Positions 3,331 to 63,305 of a stretch of DNA of 64,000 nt are shown piece by piece. The stretch comes from Pristiophorus japonicus. Taxonomy: Eukaryota. Under the pieces are notes generated by a model, which searched no databases, had not been told where the DNA came from, and worked only from the letters and a program-made list of their open reading frames with translations. The stretch lies in NCBI RefSeq assembly GCF_044704955.1, contig NC_091999.1, positions 11,036,001-11,100,000 on the forward strand, read 5' to 3'. Both the position numbers and the translations under genes were made by a program. Within the stretch, counting starts at the first letter, position 1. The number at the start of each line of letters is the position of its first letter.

Positions 3331-6300
3331 AACGGAGGGGTGTCGTAATATTAAATAAAGCAGCAATTACAACGGTGAGGAGGGGTCATATCTTAAAAGG
3401 ATCATCAAATGAGGCCATATGGGTTCAACGGAAAAAACAGGGGGCCAATCACACTGCTGGGTGTGTACTATAGACACCCAAATACAGTCAGAAGGAGTAG
3501 AAGAGCAAATATCGAGGCAAATTTCTGAGAAGTGCAAAAATAATAGGGCAGTTAGATTAGGGAATTTCAACTAGCCTCATATTAACTGGGATAGAATTAG
3601 TGTGAGATGTATAGAAGGAGCAGAATTCTTAAAAAGTATTCAAGAGAACTTTCAGCCGGTATGTAGCAAGCCCAACAAGAGGTGACGATCTGGATTAGTT
3701 TCAGGAAATAAAGCTGGGCAGTTGGAAGGGGTATCAGTGGGAGTGCATTTTGATGGTTGTGATTATAATCAGTTCGATTTAGGGAAGTTATGGAAAGGGA
3801 CAAAGATTGTCAAGAAATAAAAGTTTCCAATTGGAGAAAAGCCAACATAGCGAAGCTGAGATGTGATTTAGTTAAAGTGAAATGGACAAATCTACTTGAA
3901 GGTACATCAGTGTCAAAGCCGTGGGAGGCATTCAAGGAGGAGATAGTGAAAGTTCAGAATAAGTATTGTCCATTAAAGAAAAAGGGTGGGACAACAAATC
4001 TAGAGCCCCCTGGATGTCAAGGGGCATACAGGGTATGGAGAATGAAACAGTAATTTCAGAGACCATGGTCCAGAACTTAAAGAAGGGTAACTTTGAAGGT
4101 ATGAGGCGAGAATTGGCTAGGATAGATTGGCGAATGATACTTAGGGGGTTGACTGTGGATGGGCAATGGCAGACATTTAGAGACCGCATGGATGAAGTAC
4201 AACAATTGTACATTCCTGTCTGGCGTAAAAATAAAAAGGGGAAGGTGGCTCAACCGTGGCTATCTAGGGAAATCAGGGATAGTATTAAAGCCAAGGAAGT
4301 GGCATACAAATTGGCCAGAAATAGCAGCGAACCTGGGGACTGGGCGAAATTTAGAACTCAGCAGAGGAGGACAAAGGGTTTGATTAGGACAGGGAAAATG
4401 GAGTACGAGAAGAAGCTTGCAGGGAACATTAAGGCGGATTGCAAAAGTTTCTATAGGTATGTAAAGAGAAAAAGGTTGGTGAAGACAAACGTAGGTCCAC
4501 TGCAGTCAGAATCAGGGGAAGTCATAACGGGGAACAAGGAAATGGCGGACCAATTGAACAAGTACTTTGGTTCGGTATTCACTAAGGAGGATACAAACAA
4601 CCTTCCGGATATAAAAGGGGTCAGAGGGTCTAGTAAGGAGGGGGAACTGAGGGAAATCTTTATTAGTCGGGAAATTGTTTTGGGGAAATTGATGGGATTG
4701 AAGGCCGATAAATCCCCAGGGCCTGATGGATTGCATCCTAGAGTACTTAAGGAGGTGGCCTTGGAAATAGCGGATGCATTGACAGTCATTTTCCAACATT
4801 CCATTGACTCTGGATCAGTTCCTATGGAGTGGAGGGTAGCCAATGTAACCCCACTTTTTAAAAAAGGAGGGAGAGAGAAAACAGGGAATTATAGACCGGT
4901 CAGCCTGACCTCAGTAGTGGGTAAAATGATGGAATCAATTATCAAGGATGTCATAGCAGTGCATCTGGAAAATGGTGACATGATAGGTCCAAGTCAGCAT
5001 GGATTTGTGAAAGGGAAATCATGCTTGACAAATCTTCTGGAATTTTTTGAGGATGTTTCCAGTAAAGTGGACAAAGGAGAACCAGTTGATGTGGTATATT
5101 TGGACTTTCAGAAGGCTTTCGACAAGGTCCCACACAAGAGATTAATGTGCAAAGTTAAAGCACATGGGATTGGGGGTAGTGTGCTGATGTGGATTGAGAA
5201 CTGGTTGTCAGACAGGAAGCAAAGAGTAGGAGTAAACGGGTACTTTTCAGAATGGCAGGCAGTGACTAGTGGAGTGCCGCAAGGTTCTGTGCTGGGGCCC
5301 CAGCTGTTTACATTGTACATTAATGATTTAGACGAGGGGATTAAATGCAGTATCTCCAAATTTGCAGATGATACTAAGTTGGGTGGCAGTGTGAGCTGCG
5401 AGGAGGATGCTATTAGGCTGCAGAGTGACTTGGATAGGTTAGGTGAGTGGGCAAATGCATGGCAGATGAAGTATAATGTGGATAAATGTGAGGTTATCCA
5501 CTTTGGTGGTAAAAACAGAGAGACAGACTATTATCTGAATGGTGACAGATTAGGAAAAGGGAAGGTGCAACGAGACCTGGGTGTCATGGTACATCAGTCA
5601 TTGAAGGTTGGCATGCAGGTACAGCAGGCGGTTAAGAAAGCAAATGGCATGTTGGCCTTCATAGCGAGGGGATTTGAATACAGGGGCAGGGAGGTGTTGC
5701 TACAGTTGTACAGGGCCTTGGTGAGGCCACACCTGGAGTATTGTGTACAGTTTTGGTCTCCTAACTTGAGGAAGGACATTCTTGCTATTGAGGGAGTGCA
5801 GCGAAGGTTCACCAGACTGATTCCCGGGATGGCGGGACTGACCTATCAAGAAAGATTGGATCAACTGGGCTTGTATTCACTGGAGTTCAGAAGAATGAGA
5901 GGGGATCTCATAGAAACGTTTAAAATTCTGACGGGTTTAGACAGGTTAGATGCAGAAAGAATGTTCCCAATGTTGGGGAAGTCCAGAACCAGGGGTCACA
6001 GTCTGAGGATAAGGGGTAAGCCATTTAGGACCGAGATGAGGAGAAACTTCTTCACCCAGAGAGTGGTGAACCTGTGGAATTCTCTACCACAGAAAGTAGT
6101 TGAGGCCAATTCACTAAATATATTCAAAAGGGAGTTAGATGAAGTCCTTACTACTCGGGGGATCAAGGGTTATGGCGAGAAAGCAGGATGGGGGTACTGA
6201 AGTTTCATGTTCAGCCATGAACTCATTGAATGGCGGTGCAGGCTAGAAGGGCTGAATGGCCTACTCCTGCACCTATTTTCTATGTTTCTAAAAGGAACAA

Positions 6301-8370: not shown

Positions 8371-8847
8371 ATGGGAATCCTGTTTTTTTTCACCCTGTGT
8401 ATCTGTTTCCCACGTGAGTACCCTGCAGCCAAATCGACATTGTGTGGATTTAATATAAAGCTGCCGTGTGCATCCGAATTGCAGACGTTATCTGTGTTTT
8501 AGCCCCGTTGTGTGTTTCGGCTCATATGATCCATTAAACTCTCCCCATTCAATTTCCAGGCTCTTTCAGTCAGTCAGTGGTACAGACCCCGCCAGCGGTG
8601 ACCAGACAGGAGTGTCAGTCTCTCACCATCACCTGCGTTTTCTATGGTGGATTTTGGGCTCATCCTTTAACTCGTGGGGATTTCTTCAGACAAACCCAGA
8701 CCGGGACGGAGTGGGAGCGGATCTCGAGCGACAAGCGATTTGTTATGAGGACGAATGTGGCTGTAAAGACATTTTGGCTGCAAATTAGGGAAGTGCGAGT
8801 TGAAGACAGCGCCACCTATTACTGTAAAGCTCAGTACAAAAATAATA
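8371..8847 (+). CDS. NAR-TCR (IgNAR-like) V gene segment: leader exon 8371-8413, V exon 8560-8847
   Basis: Leader MGILFFFTLCICFP + GTGAGT (phase 1); acceptor TTCCAG; open V RSFSQSVVQTPPAVTRQECQSLTITC...FFRQTQTGTEWERISSDKRFV...EDSATYYCKAQYKNN; short FR2/CDR2 region and YYCKA ending typical of VNAR-type domains; RSS follows. Confidence 0.92.
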
Positions 8848-8885
8848 CACAGTGATGGGCCTTGGCATCCCGCGACACAAAAACT
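8848..8885 (+). other. Recombination signal sequence, 22-bp spacer (23-class)
   Basis: CACAGTG (8848-8854) + 22 nt + ACAAAAACT (8877-8885). Confidence 0.95.
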
Positions 8886-9199
8886 CTCACTGCAGATTGT
8901 GACAGAAACCAGTGAAAAGCGGCGTTAAATAGGCAGTTCCGCCTCGCCGCACCATCTGCCCCACAGTCTAGTTTATAATCATATTGCATTATTGTAGTTA
9001 ACAGTTTGAGTTTTGTAAATGCTGAGTGCGTGCAGGTGGTGATGTCTTCCCGGAATTTGTGTCAATGCATGGCGATTGGAAATGACTGATCGCTGTTGAA
9101 AGTCCAGAACACCAGATGCGATCCTGTTCTAACAGCTGGAACCGGGAACCGCAGACCCCACCGTGTACCTAATGTCCCAACATCTCACCGATTACCGGG

Positions 9200-9268
9200 A
9201 GATTTTATGCTGACGTGAAGCAGTGTGTTGACTGGAACAACACAGTGGAAGAGACCTGAGCAAAAACC
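9200..9268 (+). other. NAR-TCR D segment (9228-9240, TTGACTGGAACAA) with 12-bp RSS on both sides
   Basis: 5': AGATTTTAT-12-CAGTGTG (9200-9227, weak nonamer); 3': CACAGTG-12-GCAAAAACC (9241-9268); frames read LTGT, stop, DWN. Confidence 0.88.
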
Positions 9269-9582
9269 TGTACACAATTGAAGCACAAATTCCCTGGGCC
9301 CGGATCCTAAATATTAGCTTTGATCATATTGTCACCGTAATCTGGTTTAATTTCAGTGTGATTCCTACATTCAGTTATATTTCTCTGATATTTTCTCCAT
9401 TTATATGAGTCATCTAGCGCCGGCCCGTGTTCCTGGGCCATTTTACTACGAGCTCAGAATCACACAAGGAACAGATAGAACCGACGGGGTGTGTGGAAAA
9501 CAAATTTTGATTATTGATCACTGGAATAATTGGGCAGCGCCTAATGTCTGGTGTTGTGTGGCCGGCAGATTGAGGTGCCGGT

Positions 9583-9690
9583 GGTTCTTGTGTCGGGGTG
9601 ACTGAGACCTGTGTCACTGTGCTGGAGACAGCTGGAAGTATGATTATGTGGATGGATCCGGGACTGTGGTGACTGTCACAGCCGGTAAGT
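9583..9690 (+). other. NAR-TCR J segment (9622-9684) with 23-bp RSS and splice donor
   Basis: GGTTCTTGT (9583-9591)-23-CACTGTG (9615-9621); translates GDSWKYDYVDGSGTVVTVTA; phase-1 donor GTAAGT at 9685. Confidence 0.92.
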
Positions 9691-10369
9691 GATTTCAAAC
9701 CACGCTGTGTTACAGACTTTCCTGGTTAATATTCACCGTTAGTTTAGTATTGTGCTCAATATCACCTTAATCTCCTTTAAAGTAAAGCAGTGCTGTTTCC
9801 CAATAGAGCCTTTCCATTGCAGTTTTCGAGGAGTAGAATATGAACTGGGGTGGGGCTCGGGTCCAGGTGTGTGTTCGGAGATTGAAAGGGTAAGATCACC
9901 CCACGAAGCAGGCAGGCTGTAGTGGTCTGACCCCATCTGCATCATCATTGGTGTAACGGGGACCTCAGGATGTCCAACGAATGTTCCAGATTCTCTCTAT
10001 CACTGATCCGCAGTTGCTGTAATTGTGCGCAGATTGTCGACACGCCGGTCTCCGCTCTCGGTTTTAACTGTGACTGAGGGAGCTAAGCCTCTCCCTGCGA
10101 GCCGTGGTGTGGGGTCGGGAGTGGGGGGAGAGTGGCGGGGAGGGAGTGGAGGGGTGGCGGGGTGAGGTGGGGAGGGCAGAGAGCATTTTCATGGCCAGGA
10201 GATGGCTCTCAGAGTCGGGCAGTGTGAATGAAGTAATGGGAGATGAAAGCAATGATTCAGTGACCCGTCTAATACCTGCAGCAGCCCGTCCGTTACATGC
10301 GGCGGCCGGTGCTCTATCTGCAGCGGCCCGTCAGTTCCATGCAGCGGCCGGTCTAGAACAATGGGCCAC

Positions 10370-13300
10370 GAGTATAAGATAGTCACTAACAGAACAACGA
10401 AAGACATTGGTAATAATTTATTTACACAGAGAGAAATCAGAATGTGGAACTCACTGCCGCATTTCGGACCTGGAGCAGCAGGTGGAGTCAAATACGGTGG
10501 AAGCACGAGGCTGGGAGCTACGTTGATAGCACGTTTCAGGAGGTGGTCACCCCGCAACTTAAAGGGGTGCAGGTAGTGGGGAAGTGGGTGAACAGCAGAT
10601 GTAGTAAGTGTGCTAGGCAGGTAGCGGACGAATTATCCCCTTGAGTCCATCTCGCTTTCAAACCGATATTCACTTCTGAGTATCGGTAAGGACGATGGTG
10701 CCTCTGGGGAGCTAATTCCAAGGCACCACGGGTGGCTCAGCTGCACATGGGGGAGCGACGTAGAACAAATGAGCCCTAGTGCCAGGGGATCCTATAGTTA
10801 CTGGAACAGAGAGGTGTTTCTGCGGCCGCAGACGTGACTTCAGAATGGTTTTCTACCTCCCTGGTGCCAGGGTCAAGATCTCACAGAGCAGAGAAAGGGC
10901 ATCCTGTGGCGGGGTGGGGGAGGGGGGGAGGTGGGTGTTGGATGGTAAACAGCTAGAGGTCGTGGTCGATATCGGGACCAACGACATTGGTAAAATGGGG
11001 GATGAGGTCCTACAGGAAGTATTCAGGGAGTTTGGAAGAAAATTAAATGGTAGGACCTCAAAGGTAGTCATCTCCGGGTTACTACAACTGACACGTGTTA
11101 ATGAGTATATGAATAGCAGGTTAGAGAGGATGAACACATGGCTGGAAAGTTGGTGTAGGAGGGAGAGCTTTTCATTCTTGAGGAATTGGGACCGCTTCAG
11201 GGGGAGATAGGACTTTTACAAACCAAACGGTTTGCACCTCAACAGCGCCGGGTCGAATATCCTCACGGGGAGTTTTTCTAGTGCTGTTGCGGGGAGTTTA
11301 AACTAGCTTGGCATGGGGATGGTAACCTGTGAACGAATTCAAAAGCGAAATAGTTAAAGCAGAAATTGGATGGCAAGAAACTAGAAAGCGCTTTTGTAAG
11401 ACAGTAGAAGCAGTGCTTAATACGTCGTGAGGAAGGAGATCTTCCTGTGCTGAATGGTATATACTTTAATGCAAGAAATATAGCTGTTATTTATTAATGC
11501 TTGAGGGTCACCACACACCACAGGGCACTGCGGTCAGAGGATATCGGGCTGTACGCATGTGGCATGTGTGCTTGGTCACCTGTAGATCAGCTGGGTGTCT
11601 TTCTCACGCTGTCACTCTTGGGCTGGAATAAAGATGGATCAGGTTGCACCTGAGTGAGTTTTCAGTAACCAGACCCTTCAGTCATTACAATAGCGAATAA
11701 GGCGGATGAGCTAACAGCACAGGTCGACACTTGAGAGTTTGACATTACAGGCATTATACAAACATGGCTGAAAGAGGGGCAGGTTTGGCCGATCAATATT
11801 TCTGGCTACAGCATTTTTAGACAAGATAGAGATGGAGGTAAAAGGGGAGGGGGAGGTGGTTGCAGTACTAATTAAATAAACTATTACAGTGGTGAAGCGG
11901 GATGATACGTTAGAGCGATCATCAAATGAGGCCATATGGGTCGAATTGAAAACTAAAAATGGACGATCAAACTGCTGGGCGTGTATTATAAACCCCCAAA
12001 CAGTGGGAGGGAGACAGAGGAGCAAATATGTAGACAAATTGCTATGAAGTCCAAAAAGCATCGGGTAGTAATAGTCGGGGATTTTAACAATCCAAATATT
12101 GATTGGGATAAATTTAGTGTGAAGGGTATAGAGGGTGTGGAATTCTCGTGATGCATTGAGGAGAATTTTTTTCAGTCAGTATGTAGCAAGCCCAACACGA
12201 GAGGGTGTGTTCTTGAATTTAGTTTTGGGGAATTAAGTTGGGCAGGTTGAAGGGGTATTAGTGGAAGAACACTTGGGTCCCTGTGATCATAATTCAGAGA
12301 GATTCAAGTTGGTTATGGATAAGGACAAGAATCGGCCTGGAATAAAAGTTCCGAATTGGAGTAAAGCTAATTTTGCTAAGTTAAAGCGTGATTTGGCCAT
12401 AGTGGACTGGAAACAGATACTCGTGGATAAATCAGTGTCGAACCAATGGGAGGCATTGAAGGAGGAGATCAGGAACGCTCAGGCCAAACATATGCCCTTC
12501 AGTAAAAGGCTGGGAATTATAATTATAGAGCCCCCTGGATGTCTTGGGACTTACAGGGGAGGATTAAGAAAAAAAGGACATGTATGTGATATACTAACGG
12601 CAAAATACTGTAAAATCTTTTGAGGAATATACAACATTAAGAGTAAAAAATTAAAATGGATATTAGGAATGCTAAGAGAGAGTACAAGGAATTATTGGCC
12701 AGTAAAATTAAGGAAAACGCTTAGATGTTATATAAATATATTAAGACTAAGAGGGTAACTCAGCAAAGGGTAGGGCCTATTAGAGCTCACGAGGGTAATC
12801 TTTGTGTCGAGGTGGAAGATGTTGGTCGGCTTCTTAACGAATACGTTGCATCTGTTTTTACAAAGGAAAGGGGCAATGCAGACACTGCTATCAAGGAGGA
12901 GTGCGATATTCTTGAAGAAATAAATATAGTGAGAGAGGAAGTATTAAGTGGTTTAGCAGCTTTGAAATTTGATAAGTCCCCAGGCCCGAATGAAATGCAT
13001 CCCAGGTTGTTGAGCGTAGTAAAAGAGGAAATAGCAGAGGCCTTCACCAACTTTTTCCACCCCTGTTTGGATCTGGGCATGGTGTTGGAGAATTGGAAGA
13101 CTGCTAACGTAGTACCCTTGTTTAAGAATGAAGAAAGGGATAGGTCGAGTAATTGCAGGCCTGTCAGCCTAACCTCAGTGGTGGGGAAATTATTGTCAAA
13201 AACCTGAAAGACAGGATGAATCTTCATTTGGAAGGGGAAGGATTAAGTAGGGCTAGTCTGCACGGATTTGTGAAGAGAAGACTGTGTTTGACTCAGCTGA

Positions 13301-14875
13301 TTGAATTTTTTGAGCAGGTTACCAAGTGGGTCGATGAGGGTAGTGTGCACACTATAGTATATATGGACTTTAGCAAGGCCTTTGATAAGATCCCATATGG
13401 TAGACTGATCATGAAGGTTAACGCCATGGGATACAGGGCAAAGTGGCAAGTTGGATCCAAAACTGGCTTGGAGGTAGGAATCAAAGGCTAATGGTTGATG
13501 GATGTTTTTTGACTGGAAGAATGTTTCCAGTGGGGTTTCGCAGGGCTCAGTGCTGCTCCTTTGCTTTTGTGGTGCATATCAACGATTTAGATTTGAATAT
13601 TGGGAGTATGATTAAGAAGTTTGCAGACAACACTAACATTGGCTGTGTGGTTGATAATGAAGAGGAAAGTCATGGGCTACAGGAGGATATCAATGTACTG
13701 GTCAGGTCGGCAGAGCAGTGGCAAATCGAATATTATTCAGAGACGTGTGAGGTGATGCACTTTGCGAGGCTTAATAAGGAAAAGGTATACATGAGGCAAT
13801 AGGACACTTATTAGTGTAGATGAACAACGGGAACTTGGAGGGCTTGTTCTCAGATTCCTGAATGTAGAAGGCCAGGTGGATCAGGTCGTTAAGAAGGCAT
13901 ACGGATTGCTTGCCTTTATTGGCCGAGAAATAGAATTAAAGAGCAGGGAGGTTTTGCTTAAATTGTTTTATACACTGGTTGGGCCATAGCTGGAGTACTC
14001 CGTGCAGTTCTGTTTGCTGTATTGTAGGAAGGACGCATTGCACTAGAGAGGGTGAAGAGGAGATTTACGAGGATGCTATGCCTTGAATCGAGAATCTTAG
14101 ATATGAGGATAGATTTGATAGGCTGGGCTTGTTCTCATTTGAACAGAGGAGGTTGAGAGGAAACCTCATTGAGGTGTACAAAATTTTAAAGGGCCTGGGC
14201 ATAGTGGAGAGTAAGGGCCTATTTCCATTGGTGGAGGGTTCTTTAACGAGGGGGCACAGCTTTAAGGTAGTTGGTGGAAGATTTAGAGAGGATTTGAGGG
14301 GGTAGGCTTCGTTACGCAGAGGGTTGTGAGGATCGTGAACTCGTTGCCTGGAAGAGTGGTGGATACAGAACCCCCACCACTTTTCAGAGACGATTGGATG
14401 GGCACTTAAAGTTCAGTAACCTGCAGGATTACGAACCTAGAGCTGGTAACTGAGATTAGACTGGATGACCTTTTGTTTGACGGTGCAGATATAATGGTAA
14501 GTACTGCAGCGAAAAAAATACCATCAGCTTGATCTCCTGGACTAGTTTCGATCGCCTGGATGGGCCCGAGAGGAATTTTCCCCAGAGTTTTTCACCCTAA
14601 ATTGTCCTGGGTGTTACCTGGTGTTTGCCTCACCCAGGAGATCACATGGCTCCGGTTGAGGTGGAGTGTAGATTGTTTCAAAATAAGGTGTGTGGTAGTT
14701 GTGAGAGGCGGACTGGTTTGCCTGGGTGCTCTTTGCCTTTCCGCCATTGATCATACGTTTATAAGTAACCTTTAGGCCTGCTGACCAAGGGCCATGCGGC
14801 TCTTTGTCGGCCAACGCAGACACGATGCGCAGAAATGGCCTTTTTCTGAACTGTAAATTTCTATGTTCCTATGTT
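10370..14875 (+). mobile_element. Near full-length degraded CR1 LINE (ORF1 SGNH esterase-like + ORF2)
   Basis: ORF1 remnants GDPIV..GTNDIG; ORF2 remnants DKSPGPNEMHP, YMDFSKAFDK, FADNT; CR1-type 3' tail at ~14860. Confidence 0.88.
11485..11689 (+). mobile_element. Solo LTR (205 bp) inserted in CR1
   Basis: TGTTAT...ATTACA termini, internal AATAAA, 5-bp target-site duplication ATAGC (11480-11484 / 11690-11694); CR1 sequence rejoins across it. Confidence 0.8.
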
Positions 14876-15649
14876 TCGACATGGACAAGTTGGAGCAGAT
14901 AGCGTTGATGCAATTAAGCGGATCTTGGAAAAGACATTATAAGAAAGGAATAGATGAACACGGGGTTCAGAGTAGGAAGAGGTAATTAGAGTGGGAGGAG
15001 CCTCGTATCAACACCAACATCGACTCGTTGCGTCGAGTGGCCTGTTCCTTTTGTGCAGATTCTGTACAATGTAAAACTCAGAGAAAACTCCGCCTGCAGC
15101 AAATAGGAGAGAATCATCCAATGGTCTGAAGGAATTGCAGTTTTCAGGGAATTTGAAGAGCCAGTTCCCGGCGAGTAACAGTAAAACCACTGCGGAAGCT
15201 GCACAGACTGAAACCAACCGACAACTGAGAGACTTTGAGACAAGTTCTCAGGCAGGCAAGAAAACCACAAATAACACAAAGTGAGCGACCCAGATGTAGA
15301 TATAAAATGAAACTAACTGTAAATAATTCAACTTAAATTTAAATGGTGTAATAGTTGCCCCATTGATGGAAGAAAAGTCAAACATCGTTCAAGGCAGGCA
15401 GGAGCTCCCGTTAAGAGTAAGGCTAGATTAAATACCTTGCCTTCGCCCCACAACATTTAAGTTTGGCTCAATCGATGCTGATGAACCACTCTGATTTTGT
15501 TTGAATCTTGCTGTGCTCATGACATGACACAGCCGTGTTCCTCTAGGTCAATCATCATTTTAAGATGATTGTATCAGTGAGGAGGAGAATTACAATGTTA
15601 CCTCAGGTTTATCTTGCACCAAGAAAAATCGAAAGATAAATTTAATAGC

Positions 15650-15890
15650 AATCATATCATCGGACAGCACAGAAGGAGGTCATTCGACCCAGTATGTATA
15701 TGCCGGTTCGTGAAGGTGGTGTCACTTGGTCCCTGCCCTTTGCTCTTTTCTCATACCCCTTCAAATGTTTTCTTTTCCAGTATTGATCCAATTCTACTTT
15801 GAAAGCTACAGTTGAATATGCTTCCAGCACCTTTTCAGGCAGTGCATTCCTGTTCATAACAACTCGTCGTTTAAAAAACTTTCTCAACTC
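15650..15890 (-). mobile_element. CR1 3' fragment
   Basis: ORF 15657-15887 RKFFKRRVVMNRNALPEKV matches the CR1 ORF2 C-terminus. Confidence 0.75.
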
Positions 15891-16048
15891 CCCCTCTTAT
15901 TCTTTCGACATTGACTGCGAATACATTTGCAACAGGCTTCAAATGAAAATAGCATTAACGTGAGAGGCAGAACTTTTCCTGTGACTGACCACTGTCCCTG
16001 GGTAAACAGCAGCCAAATAAATTACATTCTTCCATTTTTATCCTCCAG

Positions 16049-16354
16049 CTTCCAGTTCCACAGTGTCCCAGAGTCCGCCTCTACAAACCTCTACTGTCGG
16101 TGACACCATTACTTTAAGCTGTGAATATGCAGGTGCCTGTCAGCACACAGTGCACTGGTACTGTCAGTCCCCAGGGCAGGGTCCGAAATACCTGCTTCAG
16201 AGACACACTTCAGGAGAGGGAAATAAAGAAAACACTGCCGGTGGCCGAATTTCTGCTTCGGTCGATCCTGTAGAGAAAATCAGCCGGTTAAACATCGCAA
16301 AACTTCAACTAAGTGACAGCGCTGTGTATTACTGTGCACTGGGTCGGCGCACAG
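16049..16354 (+). CDS. Leaderless 'supporting' TCR-delta V segment of NAR-TCR
   Basis: Polypyrimidine acceptor ...TCCTCCAG at 16048, phase 1, matching the J donor; open V ASSSTVSQSPPLQTSTVGDTITLSCEYAGACQHTVHWYCQSPGQGPKYLL...LQLSDSAVYYCALGRR; extra Cys in CDR1; no leader exon seen upstream. Confidence 0.9.
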
Positions 16355-16393
16355 CACAGTGATAAACAGTACGGAGAGAGCCATACAAAAATC
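16355..16393 (+). other. 23-RSS of the supporting V
   Basis: CACAGTG + 23 nt + ACAAAAATC. Confidence 0.95.
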
Positions 16394-16808
16394 TGATCAT
16401 GGTCGGGATTACAGATACGCAGTCATACAGAACAAGGAAAGAGCAGTATTAAAGCTGATTATGGTGGATATTACATGCACATAGGGACACAAAGCACGGG
16501 TAGAGTTCGAAAGCCTGGACAGAGTGGGGCTTACAGACACACAGTGATTCAGAGCAGGGAGAGAGCCGTACAAAAACCTGATGTTGGTGGGGAAACAGAT
16601 ACGCAGTCATAGCGAGCATGGAGAGAGTCATACTAATATCTGAATATTGTGGGGATTACAGGCACACTATGACACAGAGCACGATGGAGTACAAAAAGCT
16701 GGACATTGTCGGGATTACAGACACAGAGTGCTGCAGAGCAGAGAGAGATCCGCACTAAAACCTGTTCATGGTGGGTATTACAGTTATGCACTGAATCAGT
16801 GCAGAGGG

Positions 16809-16960
16809 AACATGAGAACATAAGAAGTAGGAGCAGTAGTAGGAAATACAACCCCTCGAGCCTGCTCAGCCATTTAATACAATCATGGCTGATCCGATCA
16901 TGGACTCAGGTCCACTTCGCTGCTCGGTCCCCACAATCCCTTATTCCCTTATCTGTTAAG
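16809..16960 (-). mobile_element. CR1 3'-tail fragment inserted in the RSS array
   Basis: AACATAAGAA..AGGAGCAG..CCCCTCGAGCCTGCTC..CCATT..AATCATGGCTGAT, same as other CR1 tails in the window. Confidence 0.8.
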
Positions 16961-19044
16961 AGCAAGGAGAGGGAGGGAGTGGGAGTGCAATGAGAGGGAG
17001 AGAGCAGCGGAGAGGAAGTGGAGCGGGAGAGCACGGGGGAGAGCAAAGGCAGGGGGAGACCTGGAGCGGGGACGTGGAGAGCCAGGGGAGGTGGAGAGCA
17101 GGGGGAATGGACAGCAGGGAGAGTCGTACGAAAACCGGAAAAATGTTGTGGATTACAGACACACATTGATAAAGAGCACCGAGCGAGTTCAACAACCTAC
17201 ACATAGTGGGGATTACAGACACACAGTGATACAGTGCACCGAGAGAGTTCACAAAGCTGGACGTGGTGGAGATCACAGGCACAGCGATGCAGAGCACGGA
17301 GGCAGCTGTTGAAAAACCTAATCATGGTGGAAAGAGCGATGAGTTCCTGCATATTTTAGGGATCTCGGAAGGAGATTAAGAAGTATCACCTCAAAGGTAA
17401 TTATCTCCAGATTACTCACGGTGCCACGAGCTTGTGCATATAGCAAAAGTAGGAAAGAGCAGAGCAATGCCTGGCTGGAGAGATCGTTCAAGAGGGACGG
17501 CTTTAGATTCCTGCTACATTGGAACCCGCTCCAGGGGATGTGGGACCAGTAAAGGCAGGAAGGTTTGCACCTCAACTTCCCGGTCAAATATTCCGCAGCT
17601 GGGGGGTGGGGGTTGCACGTTCTGTTGGAAAGCTTTAAAATAATTTTGCAGACGGTTGGGCACCATAATGTACCATTAGATGAAAGAATACAGATAGCAC
17701 TAGAGTAAGAAATATTAAGTTATTGGGTGGTAGTCAGACGAAGAGAGAATACAAGGATATTTATTAGCGATAAACGCAAAATTCTTGGTTAATCAGGTTG
17801 GTGAGCAGCAGGTGGAAATAGCCACATGCGAATATGATGTTGTGGCGATAGCGGCTGACAGAAATGCAGGATTGGGTATTAATTAGTCCTAGATATAGGT
17901 GTTAAGGAATGGGAGGGAAAGAAAGGAGTTGGGTTGGCAGTATTAGTTAAGGAGAATGTTACAGTGCTGGAGGGAGGCTATGTACTGGATGGGTGAAGCA
18001 TAGACTCTCTTTGGTTAGATATAAGAAATAATAGAGCTGCAATTGCACAACTGGGTGTTTTCTACAGGCCACCAAATAGTGGGAAGGATATAGATGGGGG
18101 CATTTGCAGGTAAATTACAGAGAACAACAAGAACTACAGAGCAGTGACAACGGAGGCCTTGAACTATGCTAATATAGTCTGGGATAATAATAGCATAAAG
18201 AGCAGAGAGGGGAAAGAATTTCATTGTGTGTTGAGGAGAACTTTCTTGAGCAGATGTACTCGAGGTGGAAGACTTCAACGTCCATCAAAAAGATTGGCTC
18301 GGTAGCAACACTATTGGCCGAGCTGGCCGAATCTTGAGGACATAGCTAACAGACTGGGTCTGTGCGAGGTGGTAAGTGAGACAACACGAGAAGAAATAAC
18401 TACTTGACCTCGTCTTCGTCAATCCACCCGTCGCAGATGCATCTCTCCATGACAGCTCTGGCAGCAGTGGTCACCGCAAAGTCATTGTGGTGACGGGATC
18501 CCATCTTCACACTAACGACATCCGCTACCGTGTTGTTTGGCACTATCAACGGGCTAGATGGGATAGGTTCAGAACAGGTCGAGCAGCTCAAAACTGAGTA
18601 TCCATGACGCAGCAGCAGAATTGTATTCCACCACAATCTGTAACCTAATGGCCCGGCATATCTCTCAATCTACCAATACCATTAAGCGAGGGGACCAATC
18701 CTGGTTCAGAGTTGCCTGTAGAAGAGCATGCCAGAAGCAGCACCAGGTGTATGTAAAAATGAGGTGCCATCGTTGGGAAGCTGCAAAACAAACTACATGC
18801 ACCCTAAAACGTGGAAGCAGGATGCCATAGACAAGGTTAAGCGATCTCACAAACAGAGAATAAGATCAAATCTCTGCAGTCCTGCTGCATCCTGTCGTGA
18901 ATGTTGGTGGAGCATCAAACAACTAACGGGAGATGGTGGTTCCATGAGTATCCCCATCAGAAAAGATGGCAGACCCAGCACGTCAGTGCAAAAGACCAGG
19001 CTGCAGCGTTTGCAATCATCTTCAGCGAAAAGTGCCAAATGGAT

Positions 19045-59498: not shown

Positions 59499-59935
59499 GT
59501 GAAGCTATTACTCGTTATTCTGTTGCACCTAACACTTAGGTACAGGAGCTGAGCGCAATAACCCGCAGTGTTTTTTATTCGCTTTGCTCCAGTTTTTTAT
59601 TATATGAATATTTTTACAGGTCGATGTCTCACGAACCAATTGCTGCGATAACATTCCGAAGGGGTGAATCAGTGCTGATAAACTGTAGCTATGACACGTC
59701 CAGCATTTACGCCATGCACTGGTACACACAGAAATCTAGTCAGCGACTCGAGTGGGTAAAAATGCGACCATCGCATGGCAAAGGGAGCAGAGCCTGATTT
59801 GAATTCGATCTTTCCACTGCGGACAAACGCGGCCAACTGGCCATTGAGAGCTCGGAGAGCTCGGATACCGCTGTGTATTATTGTGCGATAGAGTCACACA
59901 CGAAGAGGAAATGCAGTAGTCACTTTACAGAAACC
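59499..59935 (+). pseudogene. TCR V pseudogene with 23-RSS
   Basis: Leader-like (V)KLLLVILLHLTLR 59499-59539 without in-frame ATG; exon from 59620 ..RRGESVLINCSYDTSSIYAMHWYTQKSSQRLEWV..SRA*FEF..SDTAVYYCAIES; CACACGA-23-ACAGAAACC (59897-59935). Confidence 0.85.
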
Positions 59936-61200: not shown

Positions 61201-61239
61201 AGTTTTTGTACAGCTCCAGCCCTGCACCGTGCCTCTGTG
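61201..61239 (-). other. 23-RSS
   Basis: Minus strand CACAGAG + 23 nt + ACAAAAACT. Confidence 0.92.
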
Positions 61240-62143
61240 GGGTTCAGAGCGCAGTAATATACCGCGGAGTCTGCCAGTTGTGTTTCAGACACATTCAGTG
61301 GGACGGTTCGTCTCAAATCATTCAACTTCGCTGAAAAACGGTCCCCTGGAGGTCTCTCTTTTTGTTCGGTATATTTGTTAATCTGCAGTAGATATTTTAT
61401 TGATCCGCTGGGATACTGACGGTACCAGAATAGGTAAGGAGTGCTCCCACTTGTAGCTGTGTAATTACAGTGCAACTGAACATCGTCTCCTGCACTTACT
61501 GTGGTTTCAGCCGGTGTCTGTGAAATGGAGTCTCCTCGACAATGTCCTGCAAGAGCCCAGAATTATACTAAATTAAACAGTGTCACTTCATTGTGTCTAT
61601 CACCCATAATGAATCTGTCATCCCCAACACTTGCCTGGGAAGTAACTCTGGGTAATTAAACAGAAATATATTTTCACGCAACTCAAATGCTGCAACTGGA
61701 AGGTGCTTGCATCGACTGAATAAATCTTCCTTCAATGAACCTTCAGCGGGATCAGTTCCTCACCTTCATATCTTGTGATGTGAAGGGAAAACTACAAACG
61801 GTCTGCAAGTTTACGACCCCTGTGTCTGTCAAAGTCCGTAATTGGCCCTGGCGGGCCTGGTGAGTCTGCGTGTCAGTCGCATGTAATCTCACCTGAACTG
61901 AACCGCTTTCAGTCACTGGGAATTATGGCGAGTTTTCCGAAACAGTTCTCAGTGGTGAGTCAAGGTGAATCCTAATGTTCTTCTCCACTTTAGATCAATC
62001 TATTGATATTCTTGTGTTCAGGGTAGTGACCGATTAAGTATAATGTATGATGCAGATGAGCAACACAGTGTTGTGCAACTTGTGAACTTACCAGTTAAGA
62101 CAGTTGTAGATGTGATGAACAAATAAAAAGTAACATCCACCAT
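61240..62143 (-). CDS. Intact TCR alpha/delta V gene segment (probable leader 62143-62092; V exon 61546-61240)
   Basis: Leader MVDVTFYLFITSTTVLT + GTAAG phase 1; acceptor TTGCAG; GHCRGDSISQTPAETTVSAGDDVQLHCNYTATSGSTPYLFWYRQYPSGSIKYLLQ...LADSAVYYCALNP, open. Confidence 0.9.
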
Positions 62144-62828: not shown

Positions 62829-63305
62829 TTGTTTTGTACGGGGTTACTGCATCCGTGTAACAGTGTGGGGCGCAGCGCAGATTTATATACGGCGGAGTCA
62901 GAGACTAAAGCCCCGGAGACATTAAATGAAACCGATTTCTTGTCTTAGTCCTAATCATCAGAGATCCAGTCTGGGAGATTTCGAGAATGATCCCGCTGCC
63001 GCTTGCCGTGTCTCTTCAGTAAATATCTCGGAGTTTTCCCGGGATGATGGATATACCAGAAGAGGTAAGTATAGGATTGGGATGTGGAGTAGCTGCAGAA
63101 GAGTATTATGGTCTGTCCTTCCTGAACCGTTAATTCTGACGGATCCTGGGACACTGAATCTTCGCCATTCGTTCCAGTTACAACATGCAGAATGCGTCCA
63201 AAGTCTGGAAGTGAATTTGAACCATGAAAGACACAGTGATCAGTTAATCACAGACTCACCAGGCAGTACGATCATTATTATCAATAAGGAACATGGGGAG
63301 TACAT
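62829..63305 (-). pseudogene. TCR alpha/delta V pseudogene with 23-RSS
   Basis: Leader MYSPCSLLIIMIVLP + GTGAGT (63305-63260); acceptor AG mutated to TG; EDSVSQDPSELTVQEGQTIILFCSY..LFWYIHHPG..DD*D*..SDSAVYKSALR (second Cys lost); CACACTG-23-ACAAAACAA. Confidence 0.88.

What the first reader, a model, noticed from the sequence alone, without database searches (positions are those of the whole stretch)
8371..16393. Complete intact NAR-TCR double-V cassette (L-V-D-J + leaderless supporting V-delta)
Seen: all four parts are open and have RSSs. The J donor (9685, phase 1) and the V acceptor (16048, phase 1) give an in-frame ...GTVVTVTA-ASSSTVSQSPP... fusion, and no leader is visible before the second V. 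Established: this is the architecture of NAR-TCR, the doubly rearranging TCR-delta chain of cartilaginous fish with an IgNAR-like N-terminal domain. The system itself is known, but this germline copy is invisible to plain ORF calling and is likely unannotated.
Basis: partly seen in the sequence, partly recalled or inferred. Interest (0 to 1): 0.7.

Follow-up and report, generated by a model that had tools for sequence, protein, structure and literature searches.

The report
Intact shark double-V T-cell receptor cassette
This is an intact inherited gene cassette for a known shark T-cell receptor (NAR-TCR) that likely carries an antibody-like domain on top of an ordinary receptor domain; it is one of four intact copies found in this genome, and it is ordinary.

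Summary
Confirmed. Leader, VNAR-like V, one D and J (22/12/12/23 RSS) lie 6.4 kb before a leaderless TCR-type V with a 23-RSS; donor and acceptor are both phase 1, in frame. All three published sequence hallmarks of NAR-TCR are met (PMC1845163), and the two Vs are 71% and 72% identical to a white-shark gene hand-annotated as NARTCR. The cassette sits in the TCR alpha/delta locus, 1.315 Mb from the one D-delta found and opposite to C-delta, so the second join would be an inversion. It is one of 11 NAR-V cassettes found; 4 are intact. 'Invisible to ORF calling' is wrong: both Vs are open frames with V-set hits, and two sister cassettes have double-V database models under wrong names. The scan already noted this array on three sister cassettes. 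Expression is untested. New member of a known kind.

The parts
8371..8413 (+). Leader exon (14 codons + 1 base), donor GTGAGT at 8414
   Evidence: same leader in database double-V models
8560..8847 (+). NAR-TCR V exon (VNAR-like): a-b loop Cys (codon at 8613), canonical Cys at 8634 and 8823, FFRQ in place of WYR, no CDR2 loop
8848..8885 (+). V RSS, 22-bp spacer, 1 mismatch
9200..9227 (-). 5' 12-RSS of the NAR D (weak: heptamer 1, nonamer 3 mismatches; the same or similar in sister cassettes)
9228..9240 (+). Single NAR D segment, 13 nt, open in 2 of 3 frames
9241..9268 (+). 3' 12-RSS of the NAR D, 1 mismatch
9583..9621 (-). 23-RSS of the NAR J, 1 mismatch
9622..9684 (+). NAR J segment with DGSG in place of the usual W/F-G-X-G; phase-1 donor GTAAGT at 9685
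   Evidence: D or E at this site in 36 of 37 aligned database models
9685..16048 (+). Intron, 6,364 nt; holds decayed LINE-type pieces (about 10773-13490), no constant exon, no usable leader
16049..16354 (+). Leaderless supporting V-delta exon: canonical Cys at 16120 and 16333, CDR1 Cys at 16138, a further Cys at 16162 (WYCQ)
16355..16393 (+). 23-RSS of the supporting V, 1 mismatch
16394..17318 (+). Tandem array of ~61-bp units, each a copy of the 23-RSS plus ~23 bp; mostly decayed, one perfect 23-RSS at 16540-16578, a weaker one at 17280-17318

Best explanation
This is an intact germline NAR-TCR cassette in the shark TCR alpha/delta locus that likely yields a TCR-delta chain with two V domains after two separate RAG rearrangements. 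Step 1 (inferred from the signals): the VNAR-like V, the single D and the J join by deletion within 1.1 kb, following the IgH-type 22/12-12/23 pattern. Step 2 (inferred from signals and map): the 23-RSS of the supporting V pairs with the 12-RSS of D-delta 1.315 Mb away on the opposite strand, so the join is an inversion that carries the whole cassette next to D-delta, J-delta and C-delta. Splicing then links leader, NAR V-D-J, supporting V-D-J and C-delta; the phases fit (shown), the transcript is not observed. The supporting V has no leader (shown by scan), so it can only be exported behind the NAR V. The top domain is predicted to bind antigen unpaired, like a VNAR, and to be clamped to the supporting V by a disulfide between the a-b loop Cys and the CDR1 Cys (published prediction, not tested here); the supporting V would pair with V-gamma. 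The RSS array behind the supporting V is most likely a drifting repeat.
For: Anatomy and phases. Top PDB sequence matches of V1 are VNARs, best E 9e-15. The three hallmarks in PMC1845163 are all present. V1 71% (66/93) and V2 72% (71/99) identical to P0015 = LOC121270138, hand-annotated 'NARTCRdV' in table S1 of PMC12227049. Tree: V1 groups with shark, ray and chimaera first domains (97/89), sister to this genome's IgNAR Vs; V2 groups with their second domains among TCR Vs (97/95). C-delta, 10 J-like motifs, one D (12 and 23 RSS), 100 J-like motifs and C-alpha lie on the same contig on the minus strand. The two Cys are each kept in 35 of 37 aligned double-V models. Exons are better conserved than flanks against L002/L003 (92-93% vs 78-87%). 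All 4 intact NAR Vs have an intact supporting V; the other 7 of 11 are broken and have a broken (3) or unfound (4) supporting V.
Against: No transcript or rearranged read was seen, so splicing, rearrangement and use of C-delta are inferred. The 5' D nonamer has 3 mismatches. pN/pS between the four intact copies is below 1 in 12 of 12 comparisons but on few changes (for this copy's V1 0.6-0.9), so selection on this copy alone is weakly shown. The supporting V has a third non-canonical Cys without an evident partner. The inversion rests on the assembly; most of the 1.3 Mb between cassette and D-delta was not read. The primary paper (Criscitiello 2006) was not held; its features are taken second-hand.
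Confidence: 0.95

Rival explanations
1. The cassette is intact in sequence but silent or rarely used (an open-frame pseudogene from a recent duplication).
For: 7 of 11 sister cassettes are broken; copies are 79-93% alike over V1, so turnover is fast; weak 5' D nonamer; 1.3-Mb inversion needed; no expression data.
Against: All frames, splice sites and five signals are intact; the weak D nonamer is the same in intact sisters L001 and L002; exons conserved above flanks; NARTCR genes occur in both orientations in the white shark table (3 plus, 4 minus).
Confidence: 0.12
2. The L-V-D-J is an IgNAR cluster whose J splices to Ig constant exons, and the second V is an unrelated neighbour.
For: V1's best solved-structure matches are VNARs; RSS pattern is IgH-like.
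Against: This genome's IgNAR-type Vs have WYRK (3 of 4 fetched), a GAGT J and, in the C2090 stretch, a C1 exon about 6.8 kb after J; they form a separate clade, 29-31 of 88 residues identical. No C1-set hit in the 7 of 7 plus-strand intron ORFs or in 56 of 60 plus-strand ORFs after J, and no C1 motif in the window. The V-D-J and second V duplicate as one ~10-kb unit.
Confidence: 0.01
3. The RSS array is functional: RAG also cuts at the perfect 23-RSS at 16540, leaving the V's own RSS intact for a second try on a downstream J, or the array loads RAG onto a V that must compete from far away.
For: Array behind 4 of 4 intact supporting Vs and 0 of 50 other Vs scored; perfect copy at +185 in this cassette and L001; protein P0054 from another shark reads through five RSS-compatible units spaced 61 nt (0 of 200 shuffles); decayed second units can be read in whale, zebra and epaulette shark models.
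Against: The array diverges like intron: 81-86% vs 78-87% to L002/L003, exons 92-93%; unit number and which unit is intact differ between copies; nonamer columns are less conserved than spacer columns; the copies within this genome are not independent. The P0054 test takes the best codon choice, so it overstates the match.
Confidence: 0.12
4. The parts are also used outside the canonical route: the NAR V joins D-delta directly (single VNAR-like domain on C-delta), or the supporting V joins J-alpha (double-V alpha chain).
For: Both joins obey the 12/23 rule on the signals mapped here.
Against: NAR Vs that lack a good supporting V are all broken; the papers read describe NAR-TCR as a delta chain with two Vs.
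Confidence: 0.07

Closest known systems
NAR-TCR of cartilaginous fish (Criscitiello et al. 2006, not held; described in PMC1845163, PMC12227049, PMC6795676, PMC5931798)
   Same: Leader + IgNAR-related V with a-b loop Cys and no WYRK Trp; leaderless TCR-delta V with CDR1 Cys; two separately rearranging units; position among TCR alpha/delta Vs; both orientations; 71-72% identity to a hand-annotated white-shark NARTCR gene.
   Different: Nothing defining. This copy has a further Cys (WYCQ; 2 of 37 aligned models, also in four epaulette-shark models) and an RSS array behind the supporting V that the papers read do not mention.
IgNAR clusters (this genome: C18, C2090, C27)
   Same: VNAR-type V without CDR2; cluster-type V-D-J with 22/12 spacers; sister clade.
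   Different: IgNAR Vs keep WYRK, lack the a-b loop Cys, use a GAGT J and are followed by C1 exons; clusters have 2-3 D segments (PMC3149040 legend) against one here.
TCR-mu of marsupials and monotremes (PMC3457774, PMC7615758)
   Same: Three extracellular domains; an N-terminal, probably unpaired V on a supporting V; (V-D-J)-(V..J)-C logic.
   Different: Convergent: both TCR-mu Vs are VH-related, the locus is separate, and the supporting V is germline-joined or lacks D; here the top V is IgNAR-related and the supporting V is TCR-type and uses the shared D-delta, J-delta and C-delta.

Membership tests
NAR-TCR | N-terminal V related to IgNAR V | tested here: met
   VNARs top the PDB search; sister to IgNAR Vs at 100/99
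NAR-TCR | Typical leader on the NAR V | tested here: met
   8371-8413
NAR-TCR | Cys in the a-b loop of the NAR V | tested here: met
   codon at 8613; feature from PMC1845163
NAR-TCR | [quoted passage not shown] | tested here: met
   FFRQ
NAR-TCR | Supporting V-delta without a leader | tested here: met
   No candidate in the intron; same kind of scan finds leaders for 32 of 42 ordinary Vs; the one weak candidate, in L002, has no GT donor in this copy
NAR-TCR | Cys in CDR1 of the supporting V | tested here: met
   codon at 16138
NAR-TCR | Two separately rearranging V(D)J units with working signals | tested here: met
   Five RSS in the cassette; matching D-delta and J-delta signals
NAR-TCR | Location in the TCR alpha/delta locus | tested here: met
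NAR-TCR | Expressed V-V-C-delta transcript | not testable with these tools
   No RNA run was listed
NAR-TCR | Inter-domain disulfide between the two Vs | not testable with these tools
   Model of sister protein P0002 gives two Ig domains (pLDDT 83.9, pTM 0.65) but no distances
IgNAR cluster | Ig constant exons after J | tested here: not met
   present in the C2090 control
IgNAR cluster | WYRK motif and IgNAR-type J | tested here: not met
   FFRQ and DGSG here; WYRK and GAGT in controls
TCR-mu | Both V domains VH-related, own locus | tested here: not met
   V1 VNAR-like, V2 TCR-type, inside TCR alpha/delta; no VH was in the tree

The most novel reading that the evidence does not exclude
NAR-TCR supporting Vs carry an old, family-specific array of recombination signals, and intact units such as the perfect 23-RSS at 16540 are real RAG targets: a first join at the spare signal docks the cassette beside D-delta/J-delta and keeps the V's own signal for a second try, a built-in rescue for a receptor that needs two in-frame joins.
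Probability: 0.12. Interest if true: 0.65.

Novelty: new member of a known kind. Interest (0 to 1): 0.3.

Why it matters
The system is known, so the value is a clean germline map: one cassette with all signals, a census of 11 NAR-V cassettes (4 intact), and the D-delta, J-delta and C-delta it would join by a 1.3-Mb inversion. Automatic annotation names such genes wrongly, so the map gives primers for repertoire work and a template for expressing a NAR-TCR, whose ligand is still unknown (PMC7615758). The match between intact NAR Vs and intact supporting Vs is modest genetic support for the idea that the top domain depends on its support. The RSS array would matter only if RAG is shown to use it.

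Tried and rejected
The look-up of sequencing runs: no RNA holder listed, so no reads were laid. Primary papers not held: Criscitiello 2006, Ott 2021, Deiss 2019; they may describe germline cassettes, D number, orientation or the array. Supplement of PMC3964593 searched, no hit for four terms in the one file held. Structure prediction of sister protein P0002 and Foldseek gave only generic two-V matches (TM about 0.4) and no test of the disulfide; no complex job was sent. PDB sequence search with V2 returned only generic V domains. A leader-like ORF about 285 bp before the supporting V (15765) was rejected: no GT donor here or in L001, poor hydrophobic core, and similar text occurs elsewhere in the locus. 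Alternative acceptors 10 nt (V1) and 7 nt (V2) downstream are out of frame (read). My J parser picked the wrong site for L002 and L003; their J signals were read by eye from the printed sequence. The first tree lacked the IgNAR rows through a pattern error and was redone. Promoter motif scan found no CRE or octamer in 400 bp, uninformative. Paper search for tandem RSS behind a V listed 10 papers, none on this by title or abstract start; searches showed no paper on the array either, from listings only.
Full report
Observation. The leader exon is 8371-8413, the first V exon 8560-8847 with a 22-spacer RSS, a 13-nt D at 9228-9240 between two 12-RSS, a J at 9622-9684 behind a 23-RSS with a GTAAGT donor, then a 6,364-nt intron and a second V exon 16049-16354 with a 23-RSS. 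Donor and acceptor are both phase 1, so J and the second V are in frame. The window holds 5 RSS with at most one mismatch against a mean of 0.02 in 100 resamples. The 5' signal of the D is weak (nonamer 3 mismatches), but it is the same in intact sisters L001 and L002.

What the two Vs are. V1's best matches among solved structures are shark VNARs, colinear through the region where CDR2 is missing. PMC1845163 (passages) lists the hallmarks of NAR-TCR: leader, a-b loop Cys and loss of the WYRK Trp in the NAR V; no leader and a CDR1 Cys in the associated V-delta. All are present. Table S1 of PMC12227049 (part 1 of 2 read) hand-annotates white-shark LOC121270138 as NARTCRdV; that model is P0015, and V1 and V2 match it at 66/93 and 71/99 residues. 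In a tree of 34 domains V1 groups with the first domains of shark, ray and chimaera models (97/89), sister to four IgNAR-type Vs from this genome, and V2 groups with their second domains among TCR Vs (97/95) (midpoint root, no VH included). In 37 aligned double-V database models the a-b loop Cys and the CDR1 Cys are each kept in 35, and the J has D or E in place of the usual W/F in 36, which fits an unpaired top domain (inference).

No constant exon, no second leader. Pfam found no C1-set domain in 77 of the window's 147 stop-to-stop ORFs of 90 aa or more, which included all 7 plus-strand ORFs of the intron and 56 of the 60 after J; a C1 motif scan of both strands was empty, whereas an IgNAR control stretch has a C1 exon about 6.8 kb after J. 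A leader scan that recovers the true leader found no candidate in the intron; a like scan found leaders for 32 of 42 ordinary Vs, 4 of 5 NAR Vs and one weak candidate among 4 supporting Vs, rejected. The intron holds decayed LINE-type pieces.

The locus. The window is G000:C23:11036001-11100000. On the same contig, on the minus strand, lie C-alpha (9.578-9.580 Mb), 100 J-like motifs, C-delta (9.720-9.723 Mb), 10 J-like motifs and one D with a 5' 12-RSS and a 3' 23-RSS at 9,737,185-202, the only D found in the 230 kb read. The cassette is on the plus strand, 1,315,152 bp from that D. The supporting V would therefore join D-delta by inversion, which keeps the NAR V-D-J upstream of it (inference from the map). 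This is not unusual: 15 of 42 ordinary Vs sampled are also on the plus strand, and the 7 white-shark NARTCR entries are 3 plus, 4 minus.

The family here. DNA searches found 11 NAR Vs and 8 supporting Vs, all between 9.93 and 11.34 Mb (lower bounds). Each NAR V has its own L, D and J, and the unit duplicates as a block of about 10 kb. Four cassettes are intact in both Vs: this one and L001 (inverted), L002 and L003 (direct). The other 7 have a broken NAR part (stop, frameshift, lost Cys or lost ATG; L010, with a lost start codon and an altered J, is the mildest) and a broken (3) or unfound (4, about 17 kb read after J) supporting V. The copies are related, so this is suggestive only. Exons are 92-93% identical to L002/L003, flanks 78-87%.

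Annotation. [quoted passage not shown] Gene predictors thus do find these cassettes and misname them. No protein identical to this copy came up among 45 and 56 hits in searches limited to long proteins, so its own status is open.

(a) Behind the supporting V lies a tandem array of ~61-bp units, each a copy of the 23-RSS plus about 23 bp, with a perfect RSS at 16540. It follows 4 of 4 intact supporting Vs and 0 of 50 other Vs scored; 3 further rows had no scorable RSS. Protein P0054, from another shark, reads through five RSS-compatible units 61 nt apart (0 of 200 shuffles; best codon choice allowed), while the other 8 tails tested showed at most one site at 2 mismatches or fewer. Earlier notes of this scan describe the array on three sister cassettes and call it drifting; my own test agrees: it diverges like intron, and nonamer columns are not better kept than spacer columns. 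(b) The supporting V has a third non-canonical Cys (WYCQ), shared by the sister copies and four epaulette-shark models, where most models have Arg or Ser; no partner is evident in C-delta, and it is probably a tolerated change.

Mechanism. Shown: segments, signals, phases, absence of a second leader and of constant exons, map and orientation. Inferred: two RAG rearrangements, the second by inversion; splicing to C-delta. From the literature (passages in PMC3457774, PMC6795676, PMC5931798, PMC3149040): the top V is thought to be unpaired and to bind antigen alone, the chain to pair with TCR-gamma, and the disulfide is putative; the ligand is unknown (PMC7615758). That inversion is a normal RAG outcome and the RSS consensus itself are recalled textbook knowledge. 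A model of sister protein P0002 shows two Ig domains with uncertain relative orientation (pLDDT 83.9, pTM 0.65) and adds no test of the disulfide.

Verdict. A real, intact, well-supported NAR-TCR cassette: a new member of a known kind. Papers were seen as passages (PMC1845163, PMC12227049 with part of table S1, PMC6795676, PMC3457774, PMC5931798, PMC3964593, PMC3149040, PMC7615758); the three most relevant primary papers were not held and may already cover germline layout and the array. Interest 0.3.

Noticed in passing
window 16394-17318: Tandem array of ~61-bp RSS units behind the supporting V with a perfect 23-RSS at 16540; specific to supporting Vs, traces in other sharks, diverging like intron.
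   Followed up: yes
window 16162 (WYCQ): Third non-canonical Cys in the supporting V; Arg or Ser in most other sharks; no evident partner.
   Followed up: partly
window 61201-61530 (-), 62829-63190 (-), 59660-59910 (+): Three ordinary TCR alpha/delta V segments: one open with a 23-RSS, two with stops.
   Followed up: partly
L017 (G000:C23:11189074 and 11189501): A broken sister cassette carries a duplicated D with flanks, 427 bp apart.
   Followed up: no
P0021, P0032, P0034, P0036, P0037: In 5 of 37 aligned models (catsharks) the first canonical Cys of the supporting V is Trp, so that domain may lack its core disulfide.
   Followed up: no
G000:C23:9746500-9759300: Ig-like V segments just upstream of D-delta, resembling the Ig-type Vs known in shark TCR-delta loci (name TAILV in PMC12227049); at least one has a stop.
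   Followed up: no
G000:C23:9737185-9737202: Only one D-delta was found in the 230 kb read; it is open in all three frames.
   Followed up: partly
window 3963-6200 (+): 745-aa open frame with a reverse transcriptase domain of a LINE-type element, 2 kb upstream of the leader.
   Followed up: no
L008 (G000:C23:9935590-9935779): A 5'-truncated supporting V with its RSS and one repeat unit; no NAR V was found next to it.
   Followed up: partly
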